64,000 nucleotides of DNA from Escherichia coli (GTDB lineage: Bacteria; Pseudomonadota; Gammaproteobacteria; Enterobacterales; Enterobacteriaceae). This document shows, piece after piece, positions 43,689 to 64,000 of the stretch. The stretch lies in NCBI RefSeq assembly GCF_041248615.1, contig NZ_CP158425.1. One strand, given 5' to 3'. How positions within the stretch are numbered: the first letter of the stretch is position 1; each line of letters begins with the position of its first letter. Both the position numbers and the translations under genes were made by a program. The notes beneath the pieces are model-generated. The model had not been told where the DNA came from, ran no database searches, and worked only from the letters and a program-made list of their open reading frames with translations.

Positions 43689-46109
43689 ATGAAACATCTC
43701 GCTTTTATTACTGCTGTAGCCGGACTCGGTATGTCTGTTCAGGCCCCAGCTCAGATATATGAATCGGCCTTTAAGGACACGAACGGTATTGAGATCCACG
43801 CCCCGTCTTCTCGTCTTATGCTTAATCCGGCATCACCGGTAACTTTGACACTTATTTCAGGTCTTGATCGTTTCGTTAATGTCAAAGTCACGAAAGACAC
43901 TGGAACTGTCATTCTTAATACTACGACTACACGGACGGGTGTATCAGACCGACTAACAGCTGCTGACGGTAGTGAGTTCTACGGCAAAAAAGTAACTTTG
44001 CCTGCTTTGGGTGAAGGCAAATTTGTCGTTCAGATAAACGTGTTAGATCTCAATCAGAAGCCTGTAGCGACCTATAACTATAACTGGCTAATTGATGTCA
44101 CCCCTCCAGCGGCAAATGCTCTTACCGCTAATACTGGTTCTGGCTCTACCGCTGGTGACGTGTGGAAGCTTGGATTAGAGGCAACGGGGCAGTATGACTT
44201 CACCTCTTCGGGCGTAAGTGATGCAAATGGTATTGATAAGGGCCTAATATATATTTACAGGCAGGACGGTAGCCTCTACAGCACTACACAGATGCAGTAT
44301 GACGTATCCGGCCAAAAGATGTACCACACTTACTCTAAGAATTCAGTTAAGGGAACCGGAATACCAGACAGCAACCTGGATGAAGACTTTACTGCAAAAG
44401 TTGTTATCTTCGATAACGCAGGTAATAGCCGAACGCTGCCAACTCAAAAATTTCGCTACGACAACACGCTGGGTGAGATGACACTGTGGGCCGTTCATGA
44501 TCCAAATACGTCTTCCAGCGTCGTACCCGGGGTTTCTAATTATCCGGCTTACAAAGCCGGTATGGTCGTTAACGAAAACCCTATTCGATTAGTCTACCGG
44601 ATCCCAAAATCTAACTACCGTGCTTATTCAGAAGGTGGGCTTCAGTTCATCAATCAATATTCCGCCCCCAAAGAGATAGCTGTAGACAGCACTTATGCTT
44701 ATGTTGAAATGACTCTTCCCTATGGCTCAATTAATGGGGATATGGCTCGTATGGCGAACTTTGGCCAGTGGGGAGGGTATTATCCGTCATACAGCCTCGT
44801 TCTAAACCCATCTGCAAACCAAACGCCTGCATTTGCGGGTACCTGGGTAGATTTCCTCGATGATAAGGGGAACTGGGTTAAGTGGAAGGATTTTGAGAGT
44901 GTGGCTTCATCACGACTGCCAATTAAAATTTCCCGACTTCGTTTTAACGTTGAAGCCCGGCCCTTTGCACAGGAGATCGGCGGTAAGGCGACCTGCACCA
45001 TTCCGGCAGGAAAAACCTCGTGTGAAGCGCCTGAGACGTTTGATATGGCCTTGGGTACCCAGGGCTACAATAGAATCCTTTACTTCGTTCGCAGCATCAG
45101 CAATCCCATTTTGCGGTCTGAGCAATGGATTATGACACGCTGGAACAATAAACAACTGCCGGTAATAAACTCGATATCATATGACGAGACTAACAAGCAG
45201 CTGGATGTACTGGCGTCACTTGAAGGCGATGGTAACTGGTTCGACTCGGTCTCATTGAGGGAATTTTATCTTTCCGATAAGAACACCGGTACCCGGATGT
45301 CACCAACAGGCGTAATCAAATCTCGTATCTCAGGTAACTACACGATTGCTTATGATTTATCCCGTCAGTCTGAAGGAAAATACAACGTTGAGGTCAACAT
45401 CAGGGACTTCTTCCAGAACCAGACCAATAAAACTTTCGGAGAAATTGCTCTGGATAACACTCCTCCGACAGTGGCCATAACATTCGACGGAAAGCCGGTA
45501 AAAGACGATACGGTAGTGTACGGCCTGGAGAACCTCAGGATCGCTCTGGCAGATAATCTGACAACCCCGAGGATAACCCGTCTTCAGCTCGTAGGTGGCC
45601 CCACAGCTGATAACGTTGAGCTTACGTGGTCACCGGCAGGCAAAGATACATACATGCCTGAGTATCCGAGGCTGTTCCCAAATTTCGAACCATCTGAAAA
45701 TTATTCAATTAGCGTAACAGTTGCCGATAGTCAGTCGAATACCAAAACCTATACTCAGAAGTTCAGTTATCTACCGAATAACCTTGTGCAGTTACATAAT
45801 CTACGCACATTGTCGGTCAGTTCACCTCTCAAAACGACAGATGGCGTACCACTTGCGTACCTGTCCACTAACGTTCTGCGTAAGACAAATGGAGAAATTG
45901 CTAAAGGGGTCCAGAACGCAACGCTGACTGTGCGGAAGGATGCAGCCTTCGGTATTAAATTTAATGGGGCACAGGCGGCTCCAGGCGAGTCAGTTGAGGT
46001 GCAAATAGATATGGGCCAGGGGGATAATCTTCTGTTACCCGTTTATCCTTCCGAAAATGGGAAAGTTGGCACCTCAGAATTCATGATTCAGATCGACGAG
46101 TTGAAGTAA
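43689..46109 (+). CDS. large secreted protein, paralog B of the about 800-aa family
   Basis: Signal peptide ending AQA; same conserved blocks as paralogs A and C. Confidence 0.6.
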   Translation: MKHLAFITAVAGLGMSVQAPAQIYESAFKDTNGIEIHAPSSRLMLNPASPVTLTLISGLDRFVNVKVTKDTGTVILNTTTTRTGVSDRLTAADGSEFYGKKVTLPALGEGKFVVQINVLDLNQKPVATYNYNWLIDVTPPAANALTANTGSGSTAGDVWKLGLEATGQYDFTSSGVSDANGIDKGLIYIYRQDGSLYSTTQMQYDVSGQKMYHTYSKNSVKGTGIPDSNLDEDFTAKVVIFDNAGNSRTLPTQKFRYDNTLGEMTLWAVHDPNTSSSVVPGVSNYPAYKAGMVVNENPIRLVYRIPKSNYRAYSEGGLQFINQYSAPKEIAVDSTYAYVEMTLPYGSINGDMARMANFGQWGGYYPSYSLVLNPSANQTPAFAGTWVDFLDDKGNWVKWKDFESVASSRLPIKISRLRFNVEARPFAQEIGGKATCTIPAGKTSCEAPETFDMALGTQGYNRILYFVRSISNPILRSEQWIMTRWNNKQLPVINSISYDETNKQLDVLASLEGDGNWFDSVSLREFYLSDKNTGTRMSPTGVIKSRISGNYTIAYDLSRQSEGKYNVEVNIRDFFQNQTNKTFGEIALDNTPPTVAITFDGKPVKDDTVVYGLENLRIALADNLTTPRITRLQLVGGPTADNVELTWSPAGKDTYMPEYPRLFPNFEPSENYSISVTVADSQSNTKTYTQKFSYLPNNLVQLHNLRTLSVSSPLKTTDGVPLAYLSTNVLRKTNGEIAKGVQNATLTVRKDAAFGIKFNGAQAAPGESVEVQIDMGQGDNLLLPVYPSENGKVGTSEFMIQIDELK

Positions 46110-46269
46110 CTACCCGGAGCCGACAGTAAAACTGACGGCTTCAATTTTACTGCCCTCCTCGACTCCGATCAGCCAGTACGTCTTCAGAGATTCGCAAGGA
46201 AGAACCGAAAGAAAAGTTACTTTAATCGTACGTTTCCAGCGATGCTTTCAAAAGACAATGCATACTCGT

Positions 46270-48115
46270 TGATTACGACAATGGGAGTGAGTGTCGAACC
46301 CCTTGAGTAAGGATACTTGGTAAATATACAGCCCCGGGGATTCTCTTCCTTCAACCGGGGATGACAACGGGAGTGAGTCCGGCAACTCACACCTGTTGTC
46401 ACTTCTCTGACATATCGTCATACGAGCTTACTCAAGCGCATCCACAAAGATGGGATCGTTTTGAATCTAAACTGGTACTGGTTAGCCAGTCACTTGCATC
46501 TACTCCCCCGTCGATATTTAAGTGACAATTGTAGTGATCTGCAATACTGGTGTCTCAGAAACACTGACGACGGTAGAGACTCAATACCCTAACCCCTGAC
46601 AACAGAAGTGAGCTTAGAGGTGTTACGCTGCTGTCACCTAATGCTTGGGAATTGCCTGACTCACAACCATTGTCATCCGGAGCTACTGATTAACGTTGAA
46701 CCGCTGGACTTTAATGACAGTGGTAGTGATGGATAGGCTCATTTCCATTGTCGTCATTTTATCGGACAAGCCTCTTCGTCCTACAGGTTTAAGCTGACAA
46801 TGGTAGTGATTGGATGATCTCACTACTGTTGTCACTCAGTTCTTTGAGCGGACCCTTCCCTCGGTTGGTCGGCATTAACAACGGTAGTGACTCGATTGGC
46901 TCACTGCCATTGTCATCGTGTAAATGACGTACCTTATCAGCTCAGCTGAAAGCAATGACAACGGTAGTGACTCTAATTGCTCACTGCCATTGTCGTCGTG
47001 TCTATTGAGAGCCTTATCAGTGCACCTGAAAAGCAATGACAACGGTAGTGATTCTAATGGCTCACTACCGTTGTCACCGTGTGTATTGAGAGGATGGTCC
47101 ACCTAACTGGACGTATATGACAATGGTAGTGACTTTAATAGCTCACTACCATTGTCGGTGTGTGAATTGAGAGGATGAGCAGCTCAGCTGTACGTCCATG
47201 ACAATGGTAATGACTTAATGAGCTCACTACCGTTGTCACCCTGTTAATTAAGAGGCTCATCTGCTCTTCTGGAAGGCTATGACAACGGAAGTGACTTGCT
47301 GGGCTCACTGCCATTGTCGCCGTATGAATTGAGAGGATCATCCGCTCTTCTGGATGGCAATGACAACGGTAATGACTTAATAGGCTCACTACCATTGTCA
47401 CCCTGTGAATTGAGAGGATGATCTGCTTAACCAGACGGCCATGACAACGGTAGTGACTTTCTGGGCTCAATACCGTTGTCACCCTGTGAGTTAAGAGGTT
47501 GACCCGCTCTACTGGACGGCCATGACAACGGTAGTCACTTTCTGGGCTCACTACCGTTGTCACCCTGTGAGTTAAGAGGTTGACCCGCTCTACTGGACGG
47601 CCATGACAACGGTAGTCACTTTCTGGGCTCACTACCGTTGTCGCCATATAGAATGAGAGGAGCATCAGCTCAACTGAACGGCAATGACTACAGTAATGAG
47701 CTGGATGAAGCATAACCATTGACATCTGGCCCAACCGGAAGCCGTATTCGCCAATCCAATCGAGATTCACAATGGCCGTGACTCGCCGCATTAAGTTCCG
47801 GTGTCCTCCCAAAGCTGAACGCACACTCGGAGGACAATGACAATGCCAGTAAGGTACACATCATTACCATTGTCACTATAGCTACCAGAGAAGCCGGGAT
47901 TTGAATGTCGATGGTAGTGAGTGGGTCAACTCACTGCCATTGTCACCCCGTTACGATATTTTCCGTTGGATGTACTGGCCAATGAAGTAAAGCGTAGAAA
48001 CCGGGTGTTAACAGGTGACTCAGGAGAAAGCGTTGAATTTCGCAATCTCGATCTACATAGGGTGGTAGAGAACAATGACAACGGTAATGACTTTTGACTC
48101 ATTACCGTTGACGTG
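46270..48115. repeat. array of about 20 palindromic iteron pairs with about 81-bp periodicity (incA-like copy-control region)
   Basis: Units ATGACAACGGTAGTGAC-8nt-CTCACTACCGTTGTCAC recur every 80-81 bp (47118, 47198, 47279, 47360, 47441, 47522, 47603 and others). Confidence 0.7.
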
Positions 48116-48187
48116 AAAGAGCGGGCTGGGACTAACGAAAATCGAAGAAGTAATTTAGCACCCGGAGCCTAAACCGCCGGGTTAACT

Positions 48188-49276
48188 TTAGCTGGCGTTG
48201 CTGTTCTTTTTCTGGCTTCGAAGACTACGAATATAGCGCAGTTCTTCAGCGGTTAAATCATGGACGGTAAGAACATCATCGCCGTCAATCGGGTCAGCTG
48301 GTGGGCATAACTCACCTTCTAAAACAGAAGACCCTGAGTTCTCTTCTTCATCTTCAACCACTTCTAAAGGAGGCTGAGTATTGTTCAAATTCAGATCGGG
48401 ATCCCGCTTATGAATCTGGAAGTATACTTTTCCGTCTTTCTTAATTTCGGTGTACTTGAGGTATCCTATCGATGCCAACTCTTCAAGAGCCTTTCTCACG
48501 GTAGCATTCTGACTATTTGCTCGTGTTTTGAGGTTCAGACGATTTTTCAGCCGAGTAAGGGATATCGGTATAGGATTTGGCGGTAATGACTCTATGAACG
48601 TATAGAGAGCCTGGGCGCTTTCCTTCTTGGCCAACTCCTTAATTGCCTTCAGCTGCATCAAAACCTTATGATCGTATTGATAGAGCTCGAAAATCTTAGG
48701 ATCAACCTGAAGGACAACCTGATCTGATTCCGGGTCTAACAGGGCAGACTGTACCAGATGCGTTGTATAGACTTTGGACGAGTTATTACTGGTGAACGAC
48801 AAGGTAACGGATGCTAACCTGCGTAAGGAGGCGTCTATACGTTTTCTGGACGCTGTAGATGAGCGATAATTTTCAGGCGTACATAGCTTGAGGAATTCAG
48901 TGAATTTTAAGCTTATCGTGTCATTGTTAATCGGATGATTGGCATAGGTTCGAATGATGCCCATCCACGTCTTAAAATCTACTGACATATTAAGACGCTC
49001 ACCGACAATTGAAATATTGGTGAACCCCTCGCTCTCCATTAAAGAGAGCGTCTGTAACTCTTTCGTTGCGTCAAAGCCAACCGTTTTATATTCCCGATTT
49101 TGACGCCCCACACTCTTTGGTGATGGGACGAACAGCCCGAGCCGCATCAAAGCAATAGACTGCACCGTACGGTTGCTGTTAGGACGCAAAATGATGTCTT
49201 TACCTGATTCTTTCTCTCTAACAGAGAAAGCCCTGGTGACCAGGTCCTGCTGCTCAGTATCTTTCTCTTTAGTCAT
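48188..49276 (-). CDS. repA: replication initiator RepA, P1/RepFIB family
   Basis: TVQSIALMRLGLFVP, DFKTWMGII, LYQYDHKVL, ALYTFIESLP and IGYLKY match P1 RepA blocks recalled from memory; iterons on both sides. Confidence 0.85.
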   Translation of the reverse strand: MTKEKDTEQQDLVTRAFSVREKESGKDIILRPNSNRTVQSIALMRLGLFVPSPKSVGRQNREYKTVGFDATKELQTLSLMESEGFTNISIVGERLNMSVDFKTWMGIIRTYANHPINNDTISLKFTEFLKLCTPENYRSSTASRKRIDASLRRLASVTLSFTSNNSSKVYTTHLVQSALLDPESDQVVLQVDPKIFELYQYDHKVLMQLKAIKELAKKESAQALYTFIESLPPNPIPISLTRLKNRLNLKTRANSQNATVRKALEELASIGYLKYTEIKKDGKVYFQIHKRDPDLNLNNTQPPLEVVEDEEENSGSSVLEGELCPPADPIDGDDVLTVHDLTAEELRYIRSLRSQKKNSNAS

Positions 49277-49495
49277 AATTAGTTATCACTGAATGTGTAA
49301 ACAGATTGGTGAATAGTAAGCCCCAGCGAACTCTATGTCACTGGATGGATCATTGTGATGATCCATATCTGTGCATAAGTTCTACCTAAAAAAACGACTC
49401 CACTCATTAAAACTTGGCAAAAACTCTTTGCATACAATGACCTGCAACTCTTATCAACAACGGATCAGATCAAGTTAAAAAGATCTAATGAAAAG

Positions 49496-50020
49496 TCACT
49501 ACTATTGTCGCTCTGATCACTACTGATGTCAAAAAACTCATTACCAACGTTATAATAATCACTACTAATGTCAAAATAATCACTACTGTTGTCACTGATC
49601 ACGTCTCAGGCCTTGTGCCGTCTGGCCTGGAGGCAGCGGGGATCTCTTTTGATCTATCAGGAACACTAAGGTACTAATTATTGGAACTACCTTGTGGAAA
49701 ATGGGGATAAATAAATGCTTAGTTCTTATACAGGTCTCAACTTGCCTCCCTGATAAAAACTGTCGTCAAAGCTAAATCACAGCCACAGGCATTTTCGGTG
49801 GATAAATTTTTGAGAAATAGAAGCATACATGCAGACTCGTGTCGCAAGTAATTGAAAGTAATGATTTATTTAAATAATGCGAGTCACCTTACCTCACAGT
49901 GGAAGTTTAAGTCTAACCTCACTACCATTGTCACTTAAAATCATTACCAACGTCGAAATAGTCTCTACCATTGTCTTTTAAGTCACTCCCGTTGTCACTT
50001 ATGTCGCTACTGTTGTCAGT
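49496..50020. repeat. origin iterons: two sets of five direct repeats (TCACTACNNTTGTC) at 21-22-bp spacing
   Basis: Set 1 starts at 49496, 49517, 49538, 49559, 49580; set 2 at about 49918 to 50004. Confidence 0.7.
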
Positions 50021-50245
50021 GACAATGCTCCAGCCCAGTAACCATGCGGCCTACAGCGTACCGGGATCTTCTTTGTACTCTCTGGCACCTTTGGGATCAT
50101 TTATTGGATCTACATGAGGGATAAAATCTTTTGACGATTTCGTAGTGCAGTTATACCAGCGACTTAGCAAGACAAAAGCTGCAATTTAGTGACGAGTTAC
50201 TAGTCTGCCCAACAAGAGCAATGCAGAGAAGATATGTGGTGAAAT

Positions 50246-50279
50246 GACCATGGTAGTGAGTCTAATCACTACCATGGTC
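50246..50279. repeat. perfect palindrome built from two iteron half-sites
   Basis: GACCATGGTAGTGA-GTCTAA-TCACTACCATGGTC. Confidence 0.6.
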
Positions 50280-50383
50280 CGCAGTAAGCGTTACTTACGC
50301 AATGAACGTCGGACTGATTTGCAACAACATGGGCTACGGCGCATCAGAAGGCGGCCGTTGTGCTTCAGCAAAACAGCCCTGCT

Positions 50384-52840
50384 TTATTTTAATTCTTCAA
50401 TGTTAATCATGAACTCAGATCTGCCAGTAAGGCCGGATACAGCAGGGAAAATAGGAAAGCTACGGCTGTCCCCGAGCCCCAAATCCAGTTGAAGCTCTTT
50501 GCTTTCACCTGGCATCGCAGAAACGCCATTTACAGTCACGCCGAATGCAGCGTCCTTACGGACAGTAAGCACTGCGTCCTGAAGCCCTGTAGCGATTGAA
50601 CCATCCTTTTTACGCAGCTGGCTGGCATACAGAACAGCCAGAGCAGTATTGTCAGATGTTTTGAGAGAAGCATTGACAGCTAAGGTTTTCAGATTCTCTA
50701 GCCTGACGAGATTGTTTGGAAGGTAGTTAAATTCGACTGAGCTTTCTTTAACGTTGTTCATCTCATCTTTGGCCTGAACTGTGAGAGTGTATGTTTCGCC
50801 TTCATTAAGAGACGGAAAGATCTTGGGATAATTAGGTGCATACAGGTTGTTTCCCAGATTCACCCAAGACAATTCCACCGCATCAGAAACAGGGCCACCG
50901 CGAAGAGTCATACGGCTTAAGGATGGTTTAGTTAGAGCATCGGTGAGCTGTATACGGACGTTCTCCAGCCCATATACTGTTACGTTTTTGCTGATCGGTT
51001 TTCCTTCGTAGCTAATACTTACAGATGGTGCTGTATTATCAACGACAACTGTTTGATAAGGGAGGTTACCGGTATTGTTGAATGTATCTTGGGCATTAAT
51101 CACCACGTTATAACTGCCTTCTGGTACCTCTTTCATGTTGAACTCATACGTGTAGTTCCCAGACGCCATATTTCTACCTGTTTGTTTGCCGGTTACGCTT
51201 ATTTCTGCGTTGTTACGGTTTTTATCTGACAACCAAACTCGATTTACATAAACATGGTCGAAATATGAACCATCTCCAGGTTGATTCACGTAAACCTGGA
51301 GAATGTTGGTGGTTTCATTGTAATCAAATCCAGTGACGGAGGGACCCAGTGTATGCCAGGCTATATTCTCCCATATAGGGGCAAAGAAGGTTGCTTCGGT
51401 GGTTGACCTTACTTCATAGCCACTATGAAGATAACCGGTAGTGCCATTTATAATATCCTGGGGCAAAGAGACGGTACAGGTTGTTGAGCCAGCTGGAATA
51501 CTGCATGTTGCTCCGCCAGTGATTTTTTGATCATATGGCCTGGCCTGTACATTGAATCGGATATTAGTAAGTTTTATAGGCATATCAGATGCCTTGAACA
51601 GGTTCCAGTTTACGCTGTTGAACCATGTTCCATCAGCCTTTTGTCGTTCTATGGGTGAACTTCCCCAAGCCGGACTCTTTACAGAGGCAGGATCCCAGTT
51701 GAGCCAGCTGGCATACTGACCAAGATCTCCTCCAGACCATTGATATGTATTCACAGGTCTATAGTAGTTTCCATCTAAGGCACCCTGTGGCAGCTTAACT
51801 TCCACGTAGACATAGGTGGCATCTTCGGAAAGGACCTGTACTCCGCCATAGTTATTGGTAATGCTCATGCCACCATTTCGATATGGCTTCCAGTTAGTTC
51901 TTGGGATACGTATAACCAACTTGTAGGGGTTTTCCAGCACTGTAAGGCCTCGTTTAAACGGGACGTATCCCGAAGAAATGCCGGGTACAACACTGGTGCT
52001 TACACGTGAGTCATGAACTGCAAATGGCGTAAATTCTCCCATTTGATCGTCATATAAAAACCGCTGGGGAGGAATGTTAAGCGTATTTCCTGCCAGGTCC
52101 GTAACGATGAAATTGAAGGTGAATTCTTCATCAAGATCACTTGAGGGCATGCCAGCCTGGGTGTTCATATCTTTAATCCACGGATAGAACGCACGTTTAT
52201 TGGCTGTGTCATAACTCAGGTTATTGTCGGAGACCACAGAACCATTACTTCGTTTAATGACAAGACGGATCTTGTCAATTCCACTAGCATCCTCAATACC
52301 GTCTGCAAATATAGAAAACTGGCCACTACCGCCTCGGCCCAACTCCCAAAGTGGCCCAGAAAGTACCATGTCGTAACCTGCGTTTTGACTCGGATAAATA
52401 CTCTTATAGCGTGGAGGAGTTGTATCAACGATGAAATGATAAGTAGATGTGCTCACTACAGTCTGGCGAATATCCAGAGTTTCATTGACTACAGTAAAGG
52501 TCCCTTCTCCGAGCGCCGGTAGAACCATATCCTTTCCATAGTATTCTGTTCCATCGGCAGCAACGATACGATCTGCAACGCTCGTTTTGGTCGAGACGGA
52601 GGAATACATAACCTTTTTATCGCTGTCTCGTGTGACCGTCACTCGCTCGTACCGATCAAGACCCGATATCAAGTTCAGAGTCAAAACACCAGCGGGATTA
52701 AGATATGTTTGTGTTGCAGGTTTGATATTCCGAACAGCCTTATTGGTATCTGTAAATGAGTAGCTAAATACCTGAGCATGTGCCGAAGATACAGTAGCAA
52801 GGGCAGTTGCAACCATGCAGCCAATTAGAGTTTTACGCAT
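50384..52840 (-). CDS. large secreted protein, paralog C of the about 800-aa family
   Basis: Signal peptide ending AHA; C-terminal LTVRKDAAFG block. Confidence 0.6.
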   Translation of the reverse strand: MRKTLIGCMVATALATVSSAHAQVFSYSFTDTNKAVRNIKPATQTYLNPAGVLTLNLISGLDRYERVTVTRDSDKKVMYSSVSTKTSVADRIVAADGTEYYGKDMVLPALGEGTFTVVNETLDIRQTVVSTSTYHFIVDTTPPRYKSIYPSQNAGYDMVLSGPLWELGRGGSGQFSIFADGIEDASGIDKIRLVIKRSNGSVVSDNNLSYDTANKRAFYPWIKDMNTQAGMPSSDLDEEFTFNFIVTDLAGNTLNIPPQRFLYDDQMGEFTPFAVHDSRVSTSVVPGISSGYVPFKRGLTVLENPYKLVIRIPRTNWKPYRNGGMSITNNYGGVQVLSEDATYVYVEVKLPQGALDGNYYRPVNTYQWSGGDLGQYASWLNWDPASVKSPAWGSSPIERQKADGTWFNSVNWNLFKASDMPIKLTNIRFNVQARPYDQKITGGATCSIPAGSTTCTVSLPQDIINGTTGYLHSGYEVRSTTEATFFAPIWENIAWHTLGPSVTGFDYNETTNILQVYVNQPGDGSYFDHVYVNRVWLSDKNRNNAEISVTGKQTGRNMASGNYTYEFNMKEVPEGSYNVVINAQDTFNNTGNLPYQTVVVDNTAPSVSISYEGKPISKNVTVYGLENVRIQLTDALTKPSLSRMTLRGGPVSDAVELSWVNLGNNLYAPNYPKIFPSLNEGETYTLTVQAKDEMNNVKESSVEFNYLPNNLVRLENLKTLAVNASLKTSDNTALAVLYASQLRKKDGSIATGLQDAVLTVRKDAAFGVTVNGVSAMPGESKELQLDLGLGDSRSFPIFPAVSGLTGRSEFMINIEELK

Positions 52841-55967: not shown

Positions 55968-56294
55968 ATGACTAAAAATACTCGTTTTTCCCCCGAAGTC
56001 CGTCAACGGGCAGTCCGTATGGTTCTGGAAAGTCAGGATGAATATGACTCACAGTGGGCGGCAATTTGTTCCATTGCCCCAAAGATTGGCTGTACGCCGG
56101 AGACTCTGCGTGTCTGGGTTCGCCAGCATGAGCGGGATACCGGGGGCGGTGATGGTGGGCTCACCAGCGCTGAACGTCAGCGTCTGAAAGAGCTGGAACG
56201 TGAAAATCGTGAACTGCGCCGCAGTAACGATATCCTTCGCCAGGCTTCCGCTTATTTTGCGAAGGCGGAGTTCGACCGCCTCTGGAAAAAATGA
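55968..56294 (+). CDS. IS3-family transposase OrfA
   Basis: 108 aa, nearly identical to 18179..18505. Confidence 0.9.
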
Positions 56295-57181
56295 TGCCAC
56301 TGCTGGATAAGCTGCGTGAGCAGTACGGGGTCGGACCGGTATGCAGCGAACTGCATATTGCCCCGTCAACGTATTACCATTGTCAGCAACAGCGACATCA
56401 TCCGGATAAACGCAGTGCCCGTGCGCAGCACGATGACTGGCTGAAGAGAGAGATACAGCGCGTATACGATGAAAATCATCAGGTGTACGGTGTGCGTAAA
56501 GTCTGGCGTCAGTTGTTACGGGAAGGAATCAGGGTGGCCAGATGTACAGTGGCGCGCCTCATGGCGGTTATGGGACTTGCCGGTGTTCTCCGGGGTAAAA
56601 AGGTCCGTACGACCATCAGCCGGAAAGCCGTTGCCGCAGGCGACCGCGTAAACCGTCAGTTCGTGGCAGAACGACCTGACCAGCTGTGGGTGGCTGATTT
56701 TACTTACGTCAGCACATGGCGGGGCTTCGTCTATGTGGCGTTCATCATTGATGTGTTTGCCGGATACATCGTGGGGTGGCGGGTCTCATCGTCCATGGAA
56801 ACGACATTCGTGCTGGATGCACTGGAGCAGGCGTTATGGGCCCGTCGACCGTCCGGCACGGTCCATCACAGTGATAAAGGTTCTCAGTATGTATCGCTGG
56901 CCTACACACAGCGGCTTAAGGAAGCCGGATTACTGGCATCAACAGGAAGTACAGGCGACTCGTATGACAACGCGATGGCGGAGAGCATCAATGGTCTTTA
57001 CAAAGCGGAGGTAATACACCGTAAGAGCTGGAAAAACCGTGCAGAAGTGGAACTGGCCACACTCACGTGGGTGGACTGGTATAACAATCGACGATTGCTG
57101 GAAAGGCTGGGCCATACTCCTCCGGCAGAAGCAGAAAAAGCTTATTATGCTTCCATCGGAAACGATGATCTGGCAGCCTGA
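56291..57181 (+). CDS. IS3-family transposase OrfB
   Basis: 296 aa, nearly identical to 18502..19392. Confidence 0.9.
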
Positions 57182-58094: not shown

Positions 58095-59258
58095 TTATTC
58101 TGCGTCCGGCTGTGGGTCAGTATCCTGATCGGTCTCTTCCCCTGCCTTCTTAGCATTTTTTTTACGTGGGTATTTTGGCTTCTCACCATTAAGTTTTGCC
58201 TGACGATTCTCCGCACGGCGAAGCTGCTTGTTCTCTGATTCTGTGATCTCTTTTGAAAGATTTCTCAACATCTCCAGAGTACTGCGGTTCAACGTAATGT
58301 TGATTTCTTCGTCAGCACTTGAATCTGTCAGCTCCGGCAATTCAATATCCCCCAGTTTCTGTAATAAGCTGGTGGTGATGAGTTTGACGCCTTCTACGGC
58401 TTTTGTGGCAATAACCGGCGGAATCCGTGCTGGCTTGAAGTCTGAAGGTCTGACTCGTACCTGACCATGTTGGGTTTTTTTCACCGTGATGCCATTCGCA
58501 TCGGCCTGCTCAAGTTCTGCGATCATCTTCTTGATACGTGAAATTGCTTCTGTTTCGCCGAGCTCATCGATCAGTGAAAGCACGTTAACATACGAAATAG
58601 CGTCAGCATGAATCCATTTCTTGATAACAACAGAACAGGTTGTCAGGCGGATAAGAGAACTGATGGTCGTCGGGCTTTTATTTTCACGTTGAGCAATTCG
58701 TTCGAGTGACCAGCCAGCAAGAGAATGTAGGCGACGATAGGACTCGCCAAGCGCAACAGGAGAAAGCGCAAGACCACGGTTACCATCAATGGTCGCGAGC
58801 TCACAGCCAATTTCATCTTCTTTAATCTCAACGCAAAGGATTGTGATGTCATGATCTTCATCACATGCCATCATTGCGGCTTTTAAACGGCAGTGCCCCT
58901 GGCGAACAAAAGGTACCCCATCAATGACACGTACTCGGATAGGGTCTACATAGTCACCTCGAATGTAGGCATTCTTGATGTTGTAGATGTGTTCTTCAAC
59001 CTCAGGGAGCTTATAGTAATCGTCACCCATTCCCATTTCGCGGGAGTTGAAGCCTGGCGTGACCTGAATTACTGAAGGGTGGATAGCCCATGCTTTCTGG
59101 TCACTTACTTCAGTACAAAGTTCAGGGTTTGCATCACGGAACTGTTTAAGCCCAGTGACGTAACGGCCTGTGCCAGTAACTACTGAAAAGGCAACATGGG
59201 CCGTTTTAAAGACCTTGTCATTAGCTTGCTGTGTAGGTTCTGTCAGTAAAACACTCAT
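58095..59258 (-). CDS. ParB N-terminal domain protein, paralog 2
   Basis: GFNSR and IDGVPFVRQGHCR motifs; upstream of the IS-split methyltransferase gene. Confidence 0.6.
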   Translation of the reverse strand: MSVLLTEPTQQANDKVFKTAHVAFSVVTGTGRYVTGLKQFRDANPELCTEVSDQKAWAIHPSVIQVTPGFNSREMGMGDDYYKLPEVEEHIYNIKNAYIRGDYVDPIRVRVIDGVPFVRQGHCRLKAAMMACDEDHDITILCVEIKEDEIGCELATIDGNRGLALSPVALGESYRRLHSLAGWSLERIAQRENKSPTTISSLIRLTTCSVVIKKWIHADAISYVNVLSLIDELGETEAISRIKKMIAELEQADANGITVKKTQHGQVRVRPSDFKPARIPPVIATKAVEGVKLITTSLLQKLGDIELPELTDSSADEEINITLNRSTLEMLRNLSKEITESENKQLRRAENRQAKLNGEKPKYPRKKNAKKAGEETDQDTDPQPDAE

Positions 59259-59606: not shown

Positions 59607-60440
59607 TTGACTCGACATCTCAGACACATGCCGATAATCAAATGGGCTGGTGGAAAAACGAAACTGATGCCTTTCATCAGCCATCACTACCCACACGATC
59701 ATAGTTGCCGGTGGGTAGAACCCTTTATAGGCGGTGGTGCCGTTTTTCTGAACATGTTTGCACAAAATGCATTGCTTGCAGATAGCAATCCAGACTTGAT
59801 CAACCTATACAGGACTATTCAAAGACAGAAAACTAACTTTATAAATCAGGTCCAAAACTTGGCGGATAAAACCTTTGTCGAAAAGGACTACTATGAGATG
59901 AGGGACCGTTTCAACAAAACCTGTATTTCTGGTCAATCGCTTCAAAGAGCGGCTTTGTTTTACTCCCTGAATCGCCTGGGCTATAACGGTATGTGCCGCT
60001 ATAACTCAGAAAGAATCTATTCAGTGCCGTGGGGGAAACATACAGAACTGAAGCTTGACCTCAATAAAATAGACTACCTTTCATTTCGTCTTTCAGGTAT
60101 TGAACTGATCACCGCTGGTTTTGAGGAGACTCTGGCCGCAACCGGTGAAGGAGATCAGATTTACTGTGATCCGCCATATGACAAAACAAGCAAAACTAGT
60201 TTTGTCAGTTACGATGGTAAACCGTTCAGCCAAAGCGACCACGTGCTGTTAGCAAATATGCTCGTTGACGCTCACAGAAAAGGCGCTGCTGTTGCGATAT
60301 CAAATAGCCTGACATCATTCACTTTGGGCCTCTATGAAGAGCGTGGATTCGTCATACACAGACTCAGCGCTTACCGATCCGTAGGAAGTAAGCCGAATAC
60401 ACGGAAAACGGAAACAGAAATACTGGCCGTGCTGAAATAG
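59607..60440 (+). CDS. Dam-like (D12 class) N6-adenine DNA methyltransferase
   Basis: IKWAGGK and DPPY motifs. Confidence 0.8.
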   Translation: MTRHLRHMPIIKWAGGKTKLMPFISHHYPHDHSCRWVEPFIGGGAVFLNMFAQNALLADSNPDLINLYRTIQRQKTNFINQVQNLADKTFVEKDYYEMRDRFNKTCISGQSLQRAALFYSLNRLGYNGMCRYNSERIYSVPWGKHTELKLDLNKIDYLSFRLSGIELITAGFEETLAATGEGDQIYCDPPYDKTSKTSFVSYDGKPFSQSDHVLLANMLVDAHRKGAAVAISNSLTSFTLGLYEERGFVIHRLSAYRSVGSKPNTRKTETEILAVLK

Positions 60441-62468: not shown

Positions 62469-63524
62469 TTAATATTCCTTAAGGAGATCTCGAATTTCCA
62501 GAAGCTCTTCTAATTTTGGTTTAGAAACAATGATTGCTGTATTTTCGTCGTTAAGTAAAGACAATAAAATATTTAGCTTTTCATCATTCAAGATTATTTG
62601 AACACCATCATTGGAAAATATTACATTATTACTATTAACATTTTTGAACAAGTGTGCACTATCTCTACCAAATTTTAGTTCTGTTTGAGTATTCGTTATA
62701 GATTCCGTATGTGTACTTTCCACAAGCTCAAGAAATTCAGATTTTAGCCGTTCTGTTTTCTTATGCGAGAGGCGCTTAATACCCAAAGTCTTACGAGTGA
62801 CTGCCGAATTTTTCTTTTCTGGTCCGCCTTTATTTAAGGTGTCTGGTCCTGCTCCAGCTGCATTGTGTTCAGGTATGCCTACAATTTTGCTCGTTGTAGT
62901 CTCAATATTCTTAACGCCAGGTAAGAAACCTTCTATATGTTTTAAAACCATTTTGTGATCGTTGGAATATTTTAACATTATTTCAATGGCGAGCGTTTTT
63001 TTGATTAGATTTAGGCTAATCAAACGTTGAAGCTCTAATGGCATATCAAGGATTTTTAGCATATTACGAATTGCGGTAGTTGATCGTTGATATCGCATTG
63101 CTAGTTCTTCAACCGAATACCCGAGACTAACAGCATGAGCTAATGCATGAGCTTGCCCAACCGGATTTAGCCCATTGCTTCTGTTACCATCGAGGTTCTC
63201 AAGGTATTCTTCAATTTCGTTTTTATAATCGATTAGGATAACAGATAATTTTGGAATATTAGCACCTTCAGAAATTGCTAATTTTAAGCCATGAAAACGA
63301 GTATGACCTTGACGAACTAAATATTTACCTTTTCTTTTTACGACCTTGATCATATCAACCTGCCTTCCTTCCTTAAAGGCTTGTTTGATTGACACAATCA
63401 TCGACTTGACAGGTTCTTGTTCGTAACACAAATCTCCGATTACCGCCTCTCGGGGATTAAATCCCTTTTCAATTTCAACTAGATTAGTATCCACTTCAAT
63501 GACTGTATGTTTGCTGTTGTTCAT
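62469..63524 (-). CDS. ParB N-terminal domain protein, paralog 3
   Basis: GFNPR and YLVRQGHTR motifs; AT-rich. Confidence 0.55.
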   Translation of the reverse strand: MNNSKHTVIEVDTNLVEIEKGFNPREAVIGDLCYEQEPVKSMIVSIKQAFKEGRQVDMIKVVKRKGKYLVRQGHTRFHGLKLAISEGANIPKLSVILIDYKNEIEEYLENLDGNRSNGLNPVGQAHALAHAVSLGYSVEELAMRYQRSTTAIRNMLKILDMPLELQRLISLNLIKKTLAIEIMLKYSNDHKMVLKHIEGFLPGVKNIETTTSKIVGIPEHNAAGAGPDTLNKGGPEKKNSAVTRKTLGIKRLSHKKTERLKSEFLELVESTHTESITNTQTELKFGRDSAHLFKNVNSNNVIFSNDGVQIILNDEKLNILLSLLNDENTAIIVSKPKLEELLEIRDLLKEY

Positions 63525-64000
63525 ATCTTCCTCCTGTTTACTACATGATACATGAACCTCAAATTTGCCAAATAGGGCTGATACATCTAAAAGGTAAACT
63601 CAAAAAATTTGCTTAATAAAATTAAAATAAAAACTGTCTTGAATAAAACAATGATAGTAGACCCTCGTTCATTTCCGTTTGCGATCTGTAGATATTGTTA
63701 AAGGAGCGCTATTCCTTGTTTTATATGGACTTATCATTGTTTTCAACAGGATAGATCAATTCTTTAGATCACTAAAGATCAATAGAGTTCAAGTAAAGAT
63801 CACGGCATCTTTAACTCATTGATTATAGTGACTTTATGAAAGGATCCGGCATTCGGATGCATGCGAAAAGCATTTGAATGAATAAGGAAGGCATTTACTG
63901 GAATGCTTATGGCATTTAGGTTAATGCGTAAAAAGCATTTGCAAGAATATGTTATAAACAGTTTGCCAAATGAAAATCTTATCACCGACGAGTTAAGTTA

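What the first reader, a model, noticed from the sequence alone, without database searches (positions are those of the whole stretch)
46270..48115. About 1.8-kb array of roughly 20 palindromic iteron pairs at strict 81-bp periodicity downstream of repA
P1/RepFIB-type replicons carry 19-21-bp iterons on both sides of repA, and the upstream sets here look canonical. The downstream region is instead a tandem array in which each roughly 81-bp unit holds two iteron half-sites in inverted orientation with a semi-conserved linker. The copy number and the 81-bp phasing are unusual. The array may act as a copy-control (handcuffing) locus, a centromere-like site or an incompatibility determinant. ORF 47135..47824 is the array read as protein and is probably not a gene.
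Basis: partly seen in the sequence, partly recalled or inferred. Interest (0 to 1): 0.7.

Follow-up and report, generated by a model that had tools for sequence, protein, structure and literature searches.

The report
Known IncHI2 plasmid initiator-site repeat array
The 1.8-kb repeat field next to the RepHI2 replication gene of this IncHI2 resistance plasmid is real and holds about 37 binding-site copies for the plasmid's own initiator, but it is the "80-81-bp iteron" array already described in plasmid R478, and most likely an oversized copy-number control region.

Summary
The window is IncHI2 plasmid backbone, 100% identical to many E. coli and Salmonella plasmids. The array is 97.5% identical to the same locus in the reference plasmid R478.

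A weight matrix built only from the ten 21-bp-phased iterons upstream of repHI2 finds 37 strong sites in 46270-48115. About 1.6 are expected in a shuffled 64-kb window. The sites form 17 head-to-head inverted pairs (arm offset 23-25 bp) plus 5 solitary sites.

Only 13 units (46714-47764) keep the strict 80/81-bp register. The flanks are irregular.

- **Constraint:** arms are 87% alike between units, spacer 56% and linker 63%. The two arms of a unit do not covary, so this is a protein-site array and not a hairpin.
- **ORF 47135..47824:** it shows no coding signal.
- **Length variation:** natural plasmids differ by whole 81-bp units (+1, -1, -6).
- **Relatives:** a Citrobacter lineage (Rep 86% identical) keeps about 30 sites and the pair geometry but not the 81-bp tandem. 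The regularity therefore looks like a by-product of tandem duplication.

Best reading is an expanded P1 incA-type control and incompatibility locus bound by RepHI2. Function is inferred, not tested here. The literature already reports twelve 80-81-bp iterons in R478, so I rate this as already known and of low to moderate interest.

The parts
46275..48114 (.). Whole downstream field of RepHI2 iteron-like sites: 37 sites of at least 13 bits, as 17 inverted pairs plus 5 solitary sites
   Evidence: Scan with a weight matrix built from origin iterons only. Shuffled 64-kb windows give a mean of 1.6 sites.
46714..47764 (.). Strictly phased core: 13 units of 80/81 bp. Each has a 17-nt left arm (reverse orientation), an 8-nt spacer, a 17-nt right arm and a 39-nt linker. 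The first and last units are degenerate.
   Evidence: Pairwise identity between units is 87% for arms, 56% for spacer and 63% for linker.
46275..46677 (.). Degenerate left flank: one good pair (46361-46402) and five solitary sites (46275, 46522, 46564, 46596, 46660) whose partner arms have decayed; spacing is irregular
   Evidence: An ISKpn18 insertion at about 46560-46566 is tolerated in natural plasmids.
47837..48114 (.). Right flank: three irregularly spaced inverted pairs (47837-47876, 47905-47946, 48075-48114). The last is 74 bp past the repHI2 stop codon and also matches a terminator-like pattern on the minus strand.
47135..47824 (-). 229-codon open frame that is the array read as protein; not a gene
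   Evidence: No Pfam or NCBIfam match. Against the R478-type lineage (locus L007) its frame has 4 synonymous and 26 non-synonymous codon changes, the fewest synonymous of the six frames. There is no third-position excess among units. RefSeq records leave it unannotated.
48188..49276 (-). repHI2, an initiator of the P1 RepA / RepFIB family
   Evidence: Annotated as RepHI2 in RefSeq plasmids. It is 41% identical to P1 RepA and 50-56% to RepFIB, pMT1 and SSU5 RepA. It matches phrog_775 at E = 6e-110.
49495..49595 (+). Proximal origin-side set of five direct iterons at 21-bp spacing, preceded by a GATC cluster (49463, 49468, 49482, 49515) and a DnaA-box-like TTATCAACA at 49451. A promoter-like match pointing to repHI2 lies inside the set (49532 to 49504).
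   Evidence: The layout is as in the annotated P1 oriR/incC.
49918..50019 (+). Distal set of five direct iterons at 21-22-bp spacing
49598..49917 (.). Segment between the two direct-iteron sets, with DnaA-box-like nonamers (49693, 49702, 49797; one mismatch each) and a 75% A+T stretch (49837-49876); candidate origin-opening region
   Evidence: These are consensus matches only.
50244..50281 (.). One more inverted iteron pair (21-bp offset) at the far end of the replicon

Best explanation
The field is a very large set of binding sites for the plasmid's own initiator, RepHI2. It lies downstream of repHI2 in the position of incA in P1 and of the downstream repeats in RepFIB.

RepHI2 monomers would bind each 17-bp arm. 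The roughly 37 sites would then hold down initiation at the origin-side iterons, mainly by Rep-mediated pairing ('handcuffing') with those iterons in cis and in trans, and partly by soaking up initiator. This would keep the plasmid at its low copy number and make it incompatible with other RepHI2 plasmids.

The head-to-head pair (arms 25 bp apart) is the conserved building block. It probably lets two bound initiators contact each other.

The 81-bp regularity is a historical by-product. One pair-plus-linker unit was amplified by unequal recombination and is still gaining and losing whole units.

**Shown:** site identity, numbers, geometry, selective conservation of arms, unit-wise length variation, and family relationship.

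**Inferred:** RepHI2 binding, negative control, handcuffing, and cooperativity within a pair.
For: - **Site identity.** A matrix trained only on the origin iterons recovers the array arms at 14-23 bits and almost nothing else in the 64 kb.
- **Family and layout.** RepHI2 belongs to the P1 RepA / RepFIB family. The order GATC cluster, five 21-bp iterons with a promoter-like site, rep gene, downstream iterons in mixed orientation parallels the annotated P1 replicon. There, incA (9 iterons in 285 bp) is labelled an incompatibility determinant.
- **Constraint on arms only.** Arms are far better conserved between units than spacer or linker (87% against 56% and 63%; information 1.7 against 1.1 bits per column).
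- **No hairpin selection.** The two arms of a unit match each other no better than arms re-paired at random (195 against 193.2 +/- 2.6 of 255 positions).
- **Conserved in a relative.** A lineage with an 86%-identical Rep keeps about 30 sites in 1.45 kb downstream of rep, with pair offsets of 24-26 bp. It has no alignable linker sequence, no shared linker motif and no 81-bp tandem.
- **Unit-wise evolution.** Variants differ by exactly -1, +1 and -6 units, with in-register breakpoints inside arms.
- **Separate specificity.** The second replicon (RepHIA) uses an unrelated iteron, so the array is specific to RepHI2.
- **Literature.** The array in R478 is called iterons, and cloning experiments are said to suggest functional activity (PMC8490738).
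Against: - No binding, copy-number or incompatibility data could be obtained here. The two primary papers (Page 2001, Gilmour 2004) are not in the held library, so I do not know what they tested.
- The between-lineage substitution rate does not differ significantly between arms and non-arm sequence (1.15% against 1.48%, few events).
- Natural plasmids tolerate an IS insertion and the loss of six units, so full length is not essential. Those plasmids also carry the RepHIA replicon, so this says little either way.
- P1 incA is not built from head-to-head pairs, so the mechanism may differ in detail.
- PMC8490738 treats the repeats as origin iterons, not as a control locus.
Confidence: 0.65

Rival explanations
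1. The array is a positive or essential part of the origin: the 'long iterons' are where RepHI2 assembles to open or enhance the origin, not a brake.
For: PMC8490738 and PMC4980987 describe them simply as iterons of the R478 replicon and say cloning suggested functional activity. The arms are full-length iteron cores.
Against: - The classic origin features lie on the other side of repHI2: 21-bp phased direct iterons, a GATC cluster, DnaA-box-like sites and an A+T-rich stretch.
- The P1 homologue places oriR upstream and the dispensable incA downstream.
- Natural plasmids have lost six units or carry an IS insertion in the field, although RepHIA could be covering for this.
Confidence: 0.1
2. 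The array is a centromere-like or maintenance site, analogous to F sopC (12 tandem 43-bp units each with a short inverted repeat). It would be bound by a partition protein, or by RepHI2 acting as a tether, and would pair or position plasmid copies.
For: The architecture is a tandem array of palindromes. Two orphan ParB-domain genes lie 10-14 kb away at 58095..59258 and 62469..63524, both matching below the family cut-off.
Against: - The arms equal the RepHI2 origin iterons.
- No ParA or ParB operon adjoins the array; the flanks are an Ig-like gene and repHI2.
- The IncHI2 partition modules parAB and parMR are reported within the tra2 region (PMC5955447; PMC9448873).
- A six-unit deletion persists in nature.
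Confidence: 0.07
3. The strict array is a largely neutral satellite: a run of iteron-containing units amplified by recombination slippage, with little effect on the plasmid beyond a few ancestral sites.
For: - Length varies by +1, -1 and -6 units, and two neighbouring units are nearly identical.
- The linker motif is absent from the related lineage.
- An IS insertion is tolerated.
- Substitution rates between lineages do not differ significantly between arms and non-arm sequence.
Against: - Within the array, arms are held at 87% identity while spacer and linker fell to 56-63%. This requires selection, or strongly biased conversion, on the arms.
- An equally large site field is kept in a lineage whose intervening sequence is unalignable.
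Confidence: 0.12
4. The region encodes a repeat protein (ORF 47135..47824) or a structured RNA or single-strand hairpin array.
For: A 229-codon frame is open in this window and in the R478-type lineage (locus L007). The palindromes fold strongly as single strands (-16 kcal/mol, z = -8.6).
Against: - **Protein:** codon changes in the frame are 4 synonymous to 26 non-synonymous, with no third-position bias. There are no Pfam or NCBIfam hits and RefSeq does not annotate it. An 81-bp period is a multiple of 3, so an open frame comes for free.
- **Hairpin:** there is no covariation between the arms of a unit.
- **RNA:** no Rfam match reaches significance.
Confidence: 0.02

Closest known systems
The RepHI2 (RepHI2A) replicon of IncHI2 plasmid R478 and its '80-81-bp iterons' (Page et al. 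2001; Gilmour et al. 2004, as summarised in PMC8490738 and PMC4980987)
   Same: It is the same locus. R478 (NC_005211.1) aligns over all 2,091 bp at 97.5% identity, with the same flanking genes and an 81-bp period of 10.2 copies. The literature figure of twelve 80-81-bp repeats about 500 bp from repHI2 fits units 46714-47683 here, which end 505 bp from the stop codon.
   Different: - The window's lineage differs from R478 by a patch of unit shuffling or conversion in the middle of the array.
- The accessible literature calls the whole 80-81-bp unit an iteron. This analysis resolves each unit into two inverted 17-bp copies of the origin iteron plus a drifting linker.
- It also adds about 9 further pairs or sites outside the strict array.
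- I could not read the primary papers to see whether they say this too.
incA of the P1 plasmid prophage (nine 19-bp RepA iterons in 285 bp downstream of repA; a copy-control and incompatibility locus acting by origin pairing)
   Same: The initiator is homologous (41% identity). The position downstream of the rep gene is the same. The recognition sequence is the same as the origin iterons, in mixed orientation. The origin side has five iterons at 21-bp spacing next to GATC sites.
   Different: - The IncHI2 field has about 37 sites in 1.85 kb, against 9 in 285 bp.
- P1 has blocks of 3 forward and 6 reverse sites with 30-41-bp spacing, not head-to-head pairs at a fixed 25-bp offset.
- P1 has no tandem higher-order unit.
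- P1's par operon follows incA directly, whereas here an Ig-like gene does.
RepFIB replicon of IncF plasmids (repeats on both sides of repA)
   Same: RepFIB is the closest well-known Rep family (about 50-52% identity), and it has iterons downstream of rep.
   Different: In the example examined, only about 5-7 repeats lie in the 285 bp between rep and the next gene. There is no palindromic pairing and no tandem array.
F plasmid sopC centromere and the EBV oriP family of repeats (tandem arrays of palindromic protein sites; from general knowledge)
   Same: Both are tandem arrays of roughly 12-20 units, each carrying a palindromic site. In EBV the binder is the replication initiator itself (EBNA1), as is likely here.
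   Different: These are segregation or maintenance elements. Here there is no adjacent partition operon, and no evidence for tethering or partition. The resemblance is architectural only and was recalled, not tested.

Membership tests
P1 RepA / RepFIB-type iteron replicon | Initiator homologous to P1 RepA / RepFIB RepA | tested here: met
   tblastn gives 41.3% identity to P1 RepA (E = 4e-61) and 50-56% to RepFIB, pMT1 and SSU5 RepA. It matches phrog_775 at E = 6e-110. Pfam-A and NCBIfam give no hit.
P1 RepA / RepFIB-type iteron replicon | Direct iterons phased about two helical turns apart upstream of the rep gene, beside DnaA box(es) and Dam sites | tested here: met
   There are two sets of five iterons at 21-bp spacing, a GATC cluster at 49463-49515, and DnaA-box-like nonamers with one mismatch each. 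Compare the annotated P1 oriR. The DnaA boxes are consensus matches only.
incA-type downstream control locus | Repeats of the same iteron sequence located downstream of the rep gene | tested here: met
   The origin-trained matrix finds 37 sites of at least 13 bits between 46275 and 48114.
incA-type downstream control locus | Dispensable for replication; deletion raises copy number; the cloned locus exerts incompatibility | not testable with these tools
   This needs mini-replicon and incompatibility experiments. Natural -6-unit and IS-interrupted variants exist, but those plasmids have a second replicon.
R478 RepHI2 80-81-bp iteron array | Same locus and sequence as in R478 | tested here: met
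   The window aligns with NC_005211.1 at 97.5% identity over 2,091 bp with the same neighbours. The description is in PMC8490738.
Plasmid centromere array (sopC / parC / parS type) | Lies next to, and is bound by the product of, a partition operon (ParA/ParB or ParM/ParR) | tested here: not met
   The flanking genes are an Ig-like protein gene and repHI2. The IncHI2 par modules are reported in the tra2 region. Binding itself is not testable here.
Repeat-protein gene | Purifying selection on the reading frame and homologues among proteins | tested here: not met
   The frame shows 4 synonymous to 26 non-synonymous changes and no codon-position bias. There are no family hits.
Structured RNA / single-strand hairpin element | Base pairing maintained by compensatory changes | tested here: not met
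   Agreement between the arms of a unit is 195 of 255 positions, against 193.2 +/- 2.6 for randomly re-paired arms. No Rfam match reaches significance.

The most novel reading that the evidence does not exclude
The array may be more than a brake on initiation. Loaded with RepHI2, it could act as a maintenance platform in the manner of the EBV oriP family of repeats. It might pair or cluster sister plasmids, tether them, or block replication forks so that replication is unidirectional or ends there. The head-to-head pair at a fixed 25-bp offset would be a distinct high-affinity binding mode for the initiator. A weaker version is that unit number (4 to 11 Tandem Repeats Finder copies seen in nature) tunes copy number or incompatibility between IncHI2 lineages that carry mcr and ESBL genes.
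Probability: 0.1. Interest if true: 0.6.

Novelty: already known. Interest (0 to 1): 0.25.

Why it matters
IncHI2 plasmids are major carriers of mcr-1, mcr-9, ESBL and metal-resistance genes. Their RepHI2 replicon carries what may be the largest set of initiator sites in any iteron plasmid, about 49 per copy, and it has had little mechanistic study.

If the array sets copy number or incompatibility, then its unit-wise length variation could influence plasmid dosage and which IncHI2 plasmids can coexist. In my sample of plasmid records, close to half differ by one unit. As a scan result, however, this is a rediscovery of a feature published in 2001-2004, not a new kind of element.

Tried and rejected
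- **Coding hypothesis for ORF 47135..47824.** Rejected.
- **Hairpin or structured-RNA hypothesis.** The palindromes fold strongly but show no arm covariation, and no Rfam match reaches significance. Rejected.
- **A second protein site in the linker (TTGAGAGGAT and similar).** The motif recurs within the array. k-mers shared with the related lineage's non-arm sequence are within about 1.6 sd of shuffles. It is best explained by common descent of the units.
- **Arm versus linker substitution rates between IncHI2 lineages.** There were too few differences (6 of 520 against 15 of 1014), so this was inconclusive.
- **Cross-talk with the second replicon.** The RepHIA iterons (AAAAGCATTTGAATGAATG) are unrelated. 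Rejected.
- **Pfam, NCBIfam and PDB sequence searches with RepHI2.** These gave nothing useful. Family placement rests on BLAST and PHROGs.
- **Primary papers.** Page 2001, Gilmour 2004 and the Konieczny 2014 review are not in the held library.
- **Other papers mentioning RepHI2.** They use it only as a typing marker.
- **Missing files.** Loci L003-L007 were not exported to the Python sandbox, so those loci were analysed with the built-in tools and through alignment A1.

Full report
**What the window is.** The 4.3 kb around the finding is 100% identical to dozens of IncHI2 plasmids of E. coli, Salmonella, Klebsiella and others. More than 1,000 records match at 95% or better. The gene at 48188..49276 (minus strand) is annotated in RefSeq as 'IncHI-type plasmid replication initiator protein RepHI2'. 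The reference IncHI2 plasmid R478 (NC_005211.1) has the same arrangement. An Ig-like gene, a 2,077-bp gap and repHI2 align with window 46100-48190 at 97.5% identity over 2,091 bp.

**Checking the observation.**
- Tandem Repeats Finder reports an 81-bp period with 10.3 copies at 78% matches over 46871-47699. It also reports two 21-bp arrays upstream of repHI2.
- The repeat finder shows 12 consecutive 80/81-bp spacings, with each unit containing a 40-42-bp palindrome.
- For an independent test I built a 17-nt weight matrix from the ten origin-side iterons only (49495-50003) and scanned the whole window.
- Sites of at least 13 bits number 37 in 46270-48115, 12 in 49400-50300 and 1 elsewhere. One hundred shuffles of the window give a mean of 1.6 and a maximum of 5.
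- The sites alternate between strands and pair up as 17 inverted pairs, heads inward, with an 8-nt spacer. The arm offset is 25 bp in 14 pairs, 24 bp in 1 and 23 bp in 2. Five more sites have decayed partners.
- Strict 80/81-bp spacing holds for 13 units (left arms 46714 to 47684). The left flank (46275-46677) and right flank (47837-48114) are irregular.

The array and its palindromic half-sites are therefore real and match the iterons. 'About 20 pairs at strict 81-bp periodicity' should read '13 phased units inside a field of 22 pairs or sites'.

**What is under constraint.** I aligned the 11 best units.
- Arms are 87% identical pairwise (1.7 bits per column).
- The 8-nt spacer is 56% identical and the 39-nt linker 63% (about 1.1 bits per column).
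- The two arms of one unit agree with each other no better than arms re-paired at random (195 against 193.2 +/- 2.6 of 255 positions).

The palindrome is therefore two independently maintained copies of a recognition sequence, not a selected hairpin, even though it would fold well as a single strand. No Rfam match reaches significance.

**The open frame.** ORF 47135..47824 (229 codons) has no Pfam or NCBIfam match. Between this window and the R478-type lineage (locus L007), its frame carries 4 synonymous and 26 non-synonymous codon changes. That is the fewest synonymous changes of the six frames. Variable columns among units show no third-position excess. RefSeq leaves the frame unannotated in every record inspected. 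Because 81 is a multiple of 3, an open frame across the array is expected for free. It is not a gene.

**How the array evolves.** Natural IncHI2 plasmids differ by whole units.
- Two records lack exactly one 81-bp unit, the near-duplicate at 47522.
- One record has one unit more, plus an ISKpn18 insertion at about 46560-46566.
- One record has lost six units, with an in-register breakpoint inside a right arm.
- One record has lost repHI2 to a mer transposon and keeps only the left part of the field.
- In an evenly spaced sample of 60 of the 1,127 matching records, about half have the window's length and roughly 40% are one unit shorter. This is a rough estimate from sampling.
- Differences from R478 cluster in a patch of the central units that looks like unit conversion.
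- Substitution rates in arms and in non-arm sequence between lineages are too low to compare.

**Relatives.**
- RepHI2 is 50-56% identical to RepFIB, Yersinia pMT1-type and SSU5-type RepA proteins, and 41% identical to P1 RepA. It matches phrog_775 at E = 6e-110.
- A lineage of about 110 large MOBH plasmids, mostly from Citrobacter, has a Rep that is 86% identical. Downstream of that rep gene lie about 30 sites that score 14-23 bits with my matrix, spread over 1.45 kb. Many form inverted pairs at 24-26-bp offsets.
- That lineage has no 81-bp tandem, only a 145-bp duplication. Its intervening DNA is not alignable with the IncHI2 field (one search finds only IncHI2). It shares no linker motif above chance.
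- The large site number and the pair geometry are thus conserved, while the 81-bp register and the linker are not.
- A RepFIB example has only about 5-7 repeats in 285 bp downstream of rep.
- P1 incA has 9 iterons in 285 bp, arranged as 3 forward then 6 reverse.
- The plasmid's second replicon, RepHIA, uses an unrelated iteron.

**Mechanism (inferred).** The layout on the other side of repHI2 mirrors the annotated P1 oriR/incC region.
- It has a GATC cluster and five 21-bp-phased iterons containing a promoter-like match that points at repHI2.
- About 320 bp follow with DnaA-box-like nonamers and an A+T-rich stretch.
- Then come five more iterons.

By homology of protein and layout, the downstream field is the counterpart of incA. 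It would be a set of initiator sites that limits initiation by pairing with origin iterons and by binding initiator, and that specifies incompatibility. This role is established for P1 from general knowledge of that system. The P1 record itself labels incA an incompatibility determinant.

What is unusual here is the scale, about 37 sites against 9, and the head-to-head pair as the building block. The 81-bp register is best explained by amplification of one pair-plus-linker unit through unequal recombination. None of this was tested functionally.

**Rivals.**
- A positive origin role cannot be excluded without the primary papers.
- A centromere role is unlikely. There is no adjacent par operon, the par modules are reported within tra2, and the arms equal the Rep iterons.
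- A neutral-satellite view explains the length variation, but not the selective conservation of arms or the retention of a similar field in a diverged lineage.

[quoted passage not shown] PMC4980987 cites R478 for iterons of 'up to even 76-bp'. Units 46714-47683 here number twelve and end 505 bp from the repHI2 stop codon. The finding is therefore a rediscovery.

The decomposition of each unit into two inverted origin-type iterons, the extra flanking sites, the absence of covariation, the unit-wise polymorphism and the comparison with the Citrobacter lineage may add detail. I could not check the primary papers for these points.

**Verdict.** Its function is still only inferred. Interest is 0.25.

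Noticed in passing
window 43689..46109 (+) and 50384..52840 (-): The RepHI2 replicon sits between two convergently oriented paralogous genes for about 810-aa Ig-like-domain proteins (41% identical over their full length). The same arrangement is present in R478. IncHI Ig-like proteins have been linked to conjugation (title of PMC6764697, not read).
   Followed up: partly
window 63866-63949 and locus L009 1000-1600: Iterons of the second replicon (RepHIA; consensus AAAAGCATTTGAATGAATG) occur at the very end of the window. About 11 copies in both orientations lie in the 1.15-kb gap downstream of repHIA in the matching record. They are unrelated to the RepHI2 iteron.
   Followed up: partly
window 59607..60440 (+): A plasmid-encoded Dam-family adenine methyltransferase (TIGR00571, 228 bits, above its cut-off) lies about 10 kb from an origin that carries a cluster of GATC sites. 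The cluster resembles the Dam-site cluster annotated in P1 oriR.
   Followed up: no
window 58095..59258 (-) and 62469..63524 (-): Two orphan genes show weak ParB/RepB/Spo0J-domain matches (32-34 bits, below the 58-bit cut-off). They lie between the two replicons with no ParA gene beside them. Their targets are unknown.
   Followed up: no
window 49346-49367: A perfect 9-bp inverted repeat, ATGGATCAT-TGTG-ATGATCCAT, contains two GATC sites and lies between the proximal iterons and the repHI2 start codon. It could be an operator or a methylation-sensitive site.
   Followed up: no
window 48075-48114: The iteron palindrome nearest to repHI2 (74 bp past the stop codon) also matches an intrinsic-terminator pattern on the minus strand (12-bp stem followed by TCATTGTTCT). 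It may double as the repHI2 terminator.
   Followed up: partly
window 47921..48097 (+): Some RefSeq records annotate a 58-aa hypothetical protein (WP_158666847.1) here. It overlaps two iteron palindromes and has no family match, so it is probably a spurious call.
   Followed up: partly
window 56291..57181 (+): An IS3-family transposase gene (NF033516, 314 bits) is present. Gene coordinates here are shifted by about 1.3 kb relative to R478, which suggests an IS insertion in this lineage.
   Followed up: no
locus L006 (NC_021845.1, Salmonella Cubana plasmid): This IncHI2-type plasmid has lost repHI2 and the right half of the array to a mer transposon, yet persists, presumably on RepHIA alone. 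It shows that the RepHI2 replicon is dispensable in nature.
   Followed up: partly
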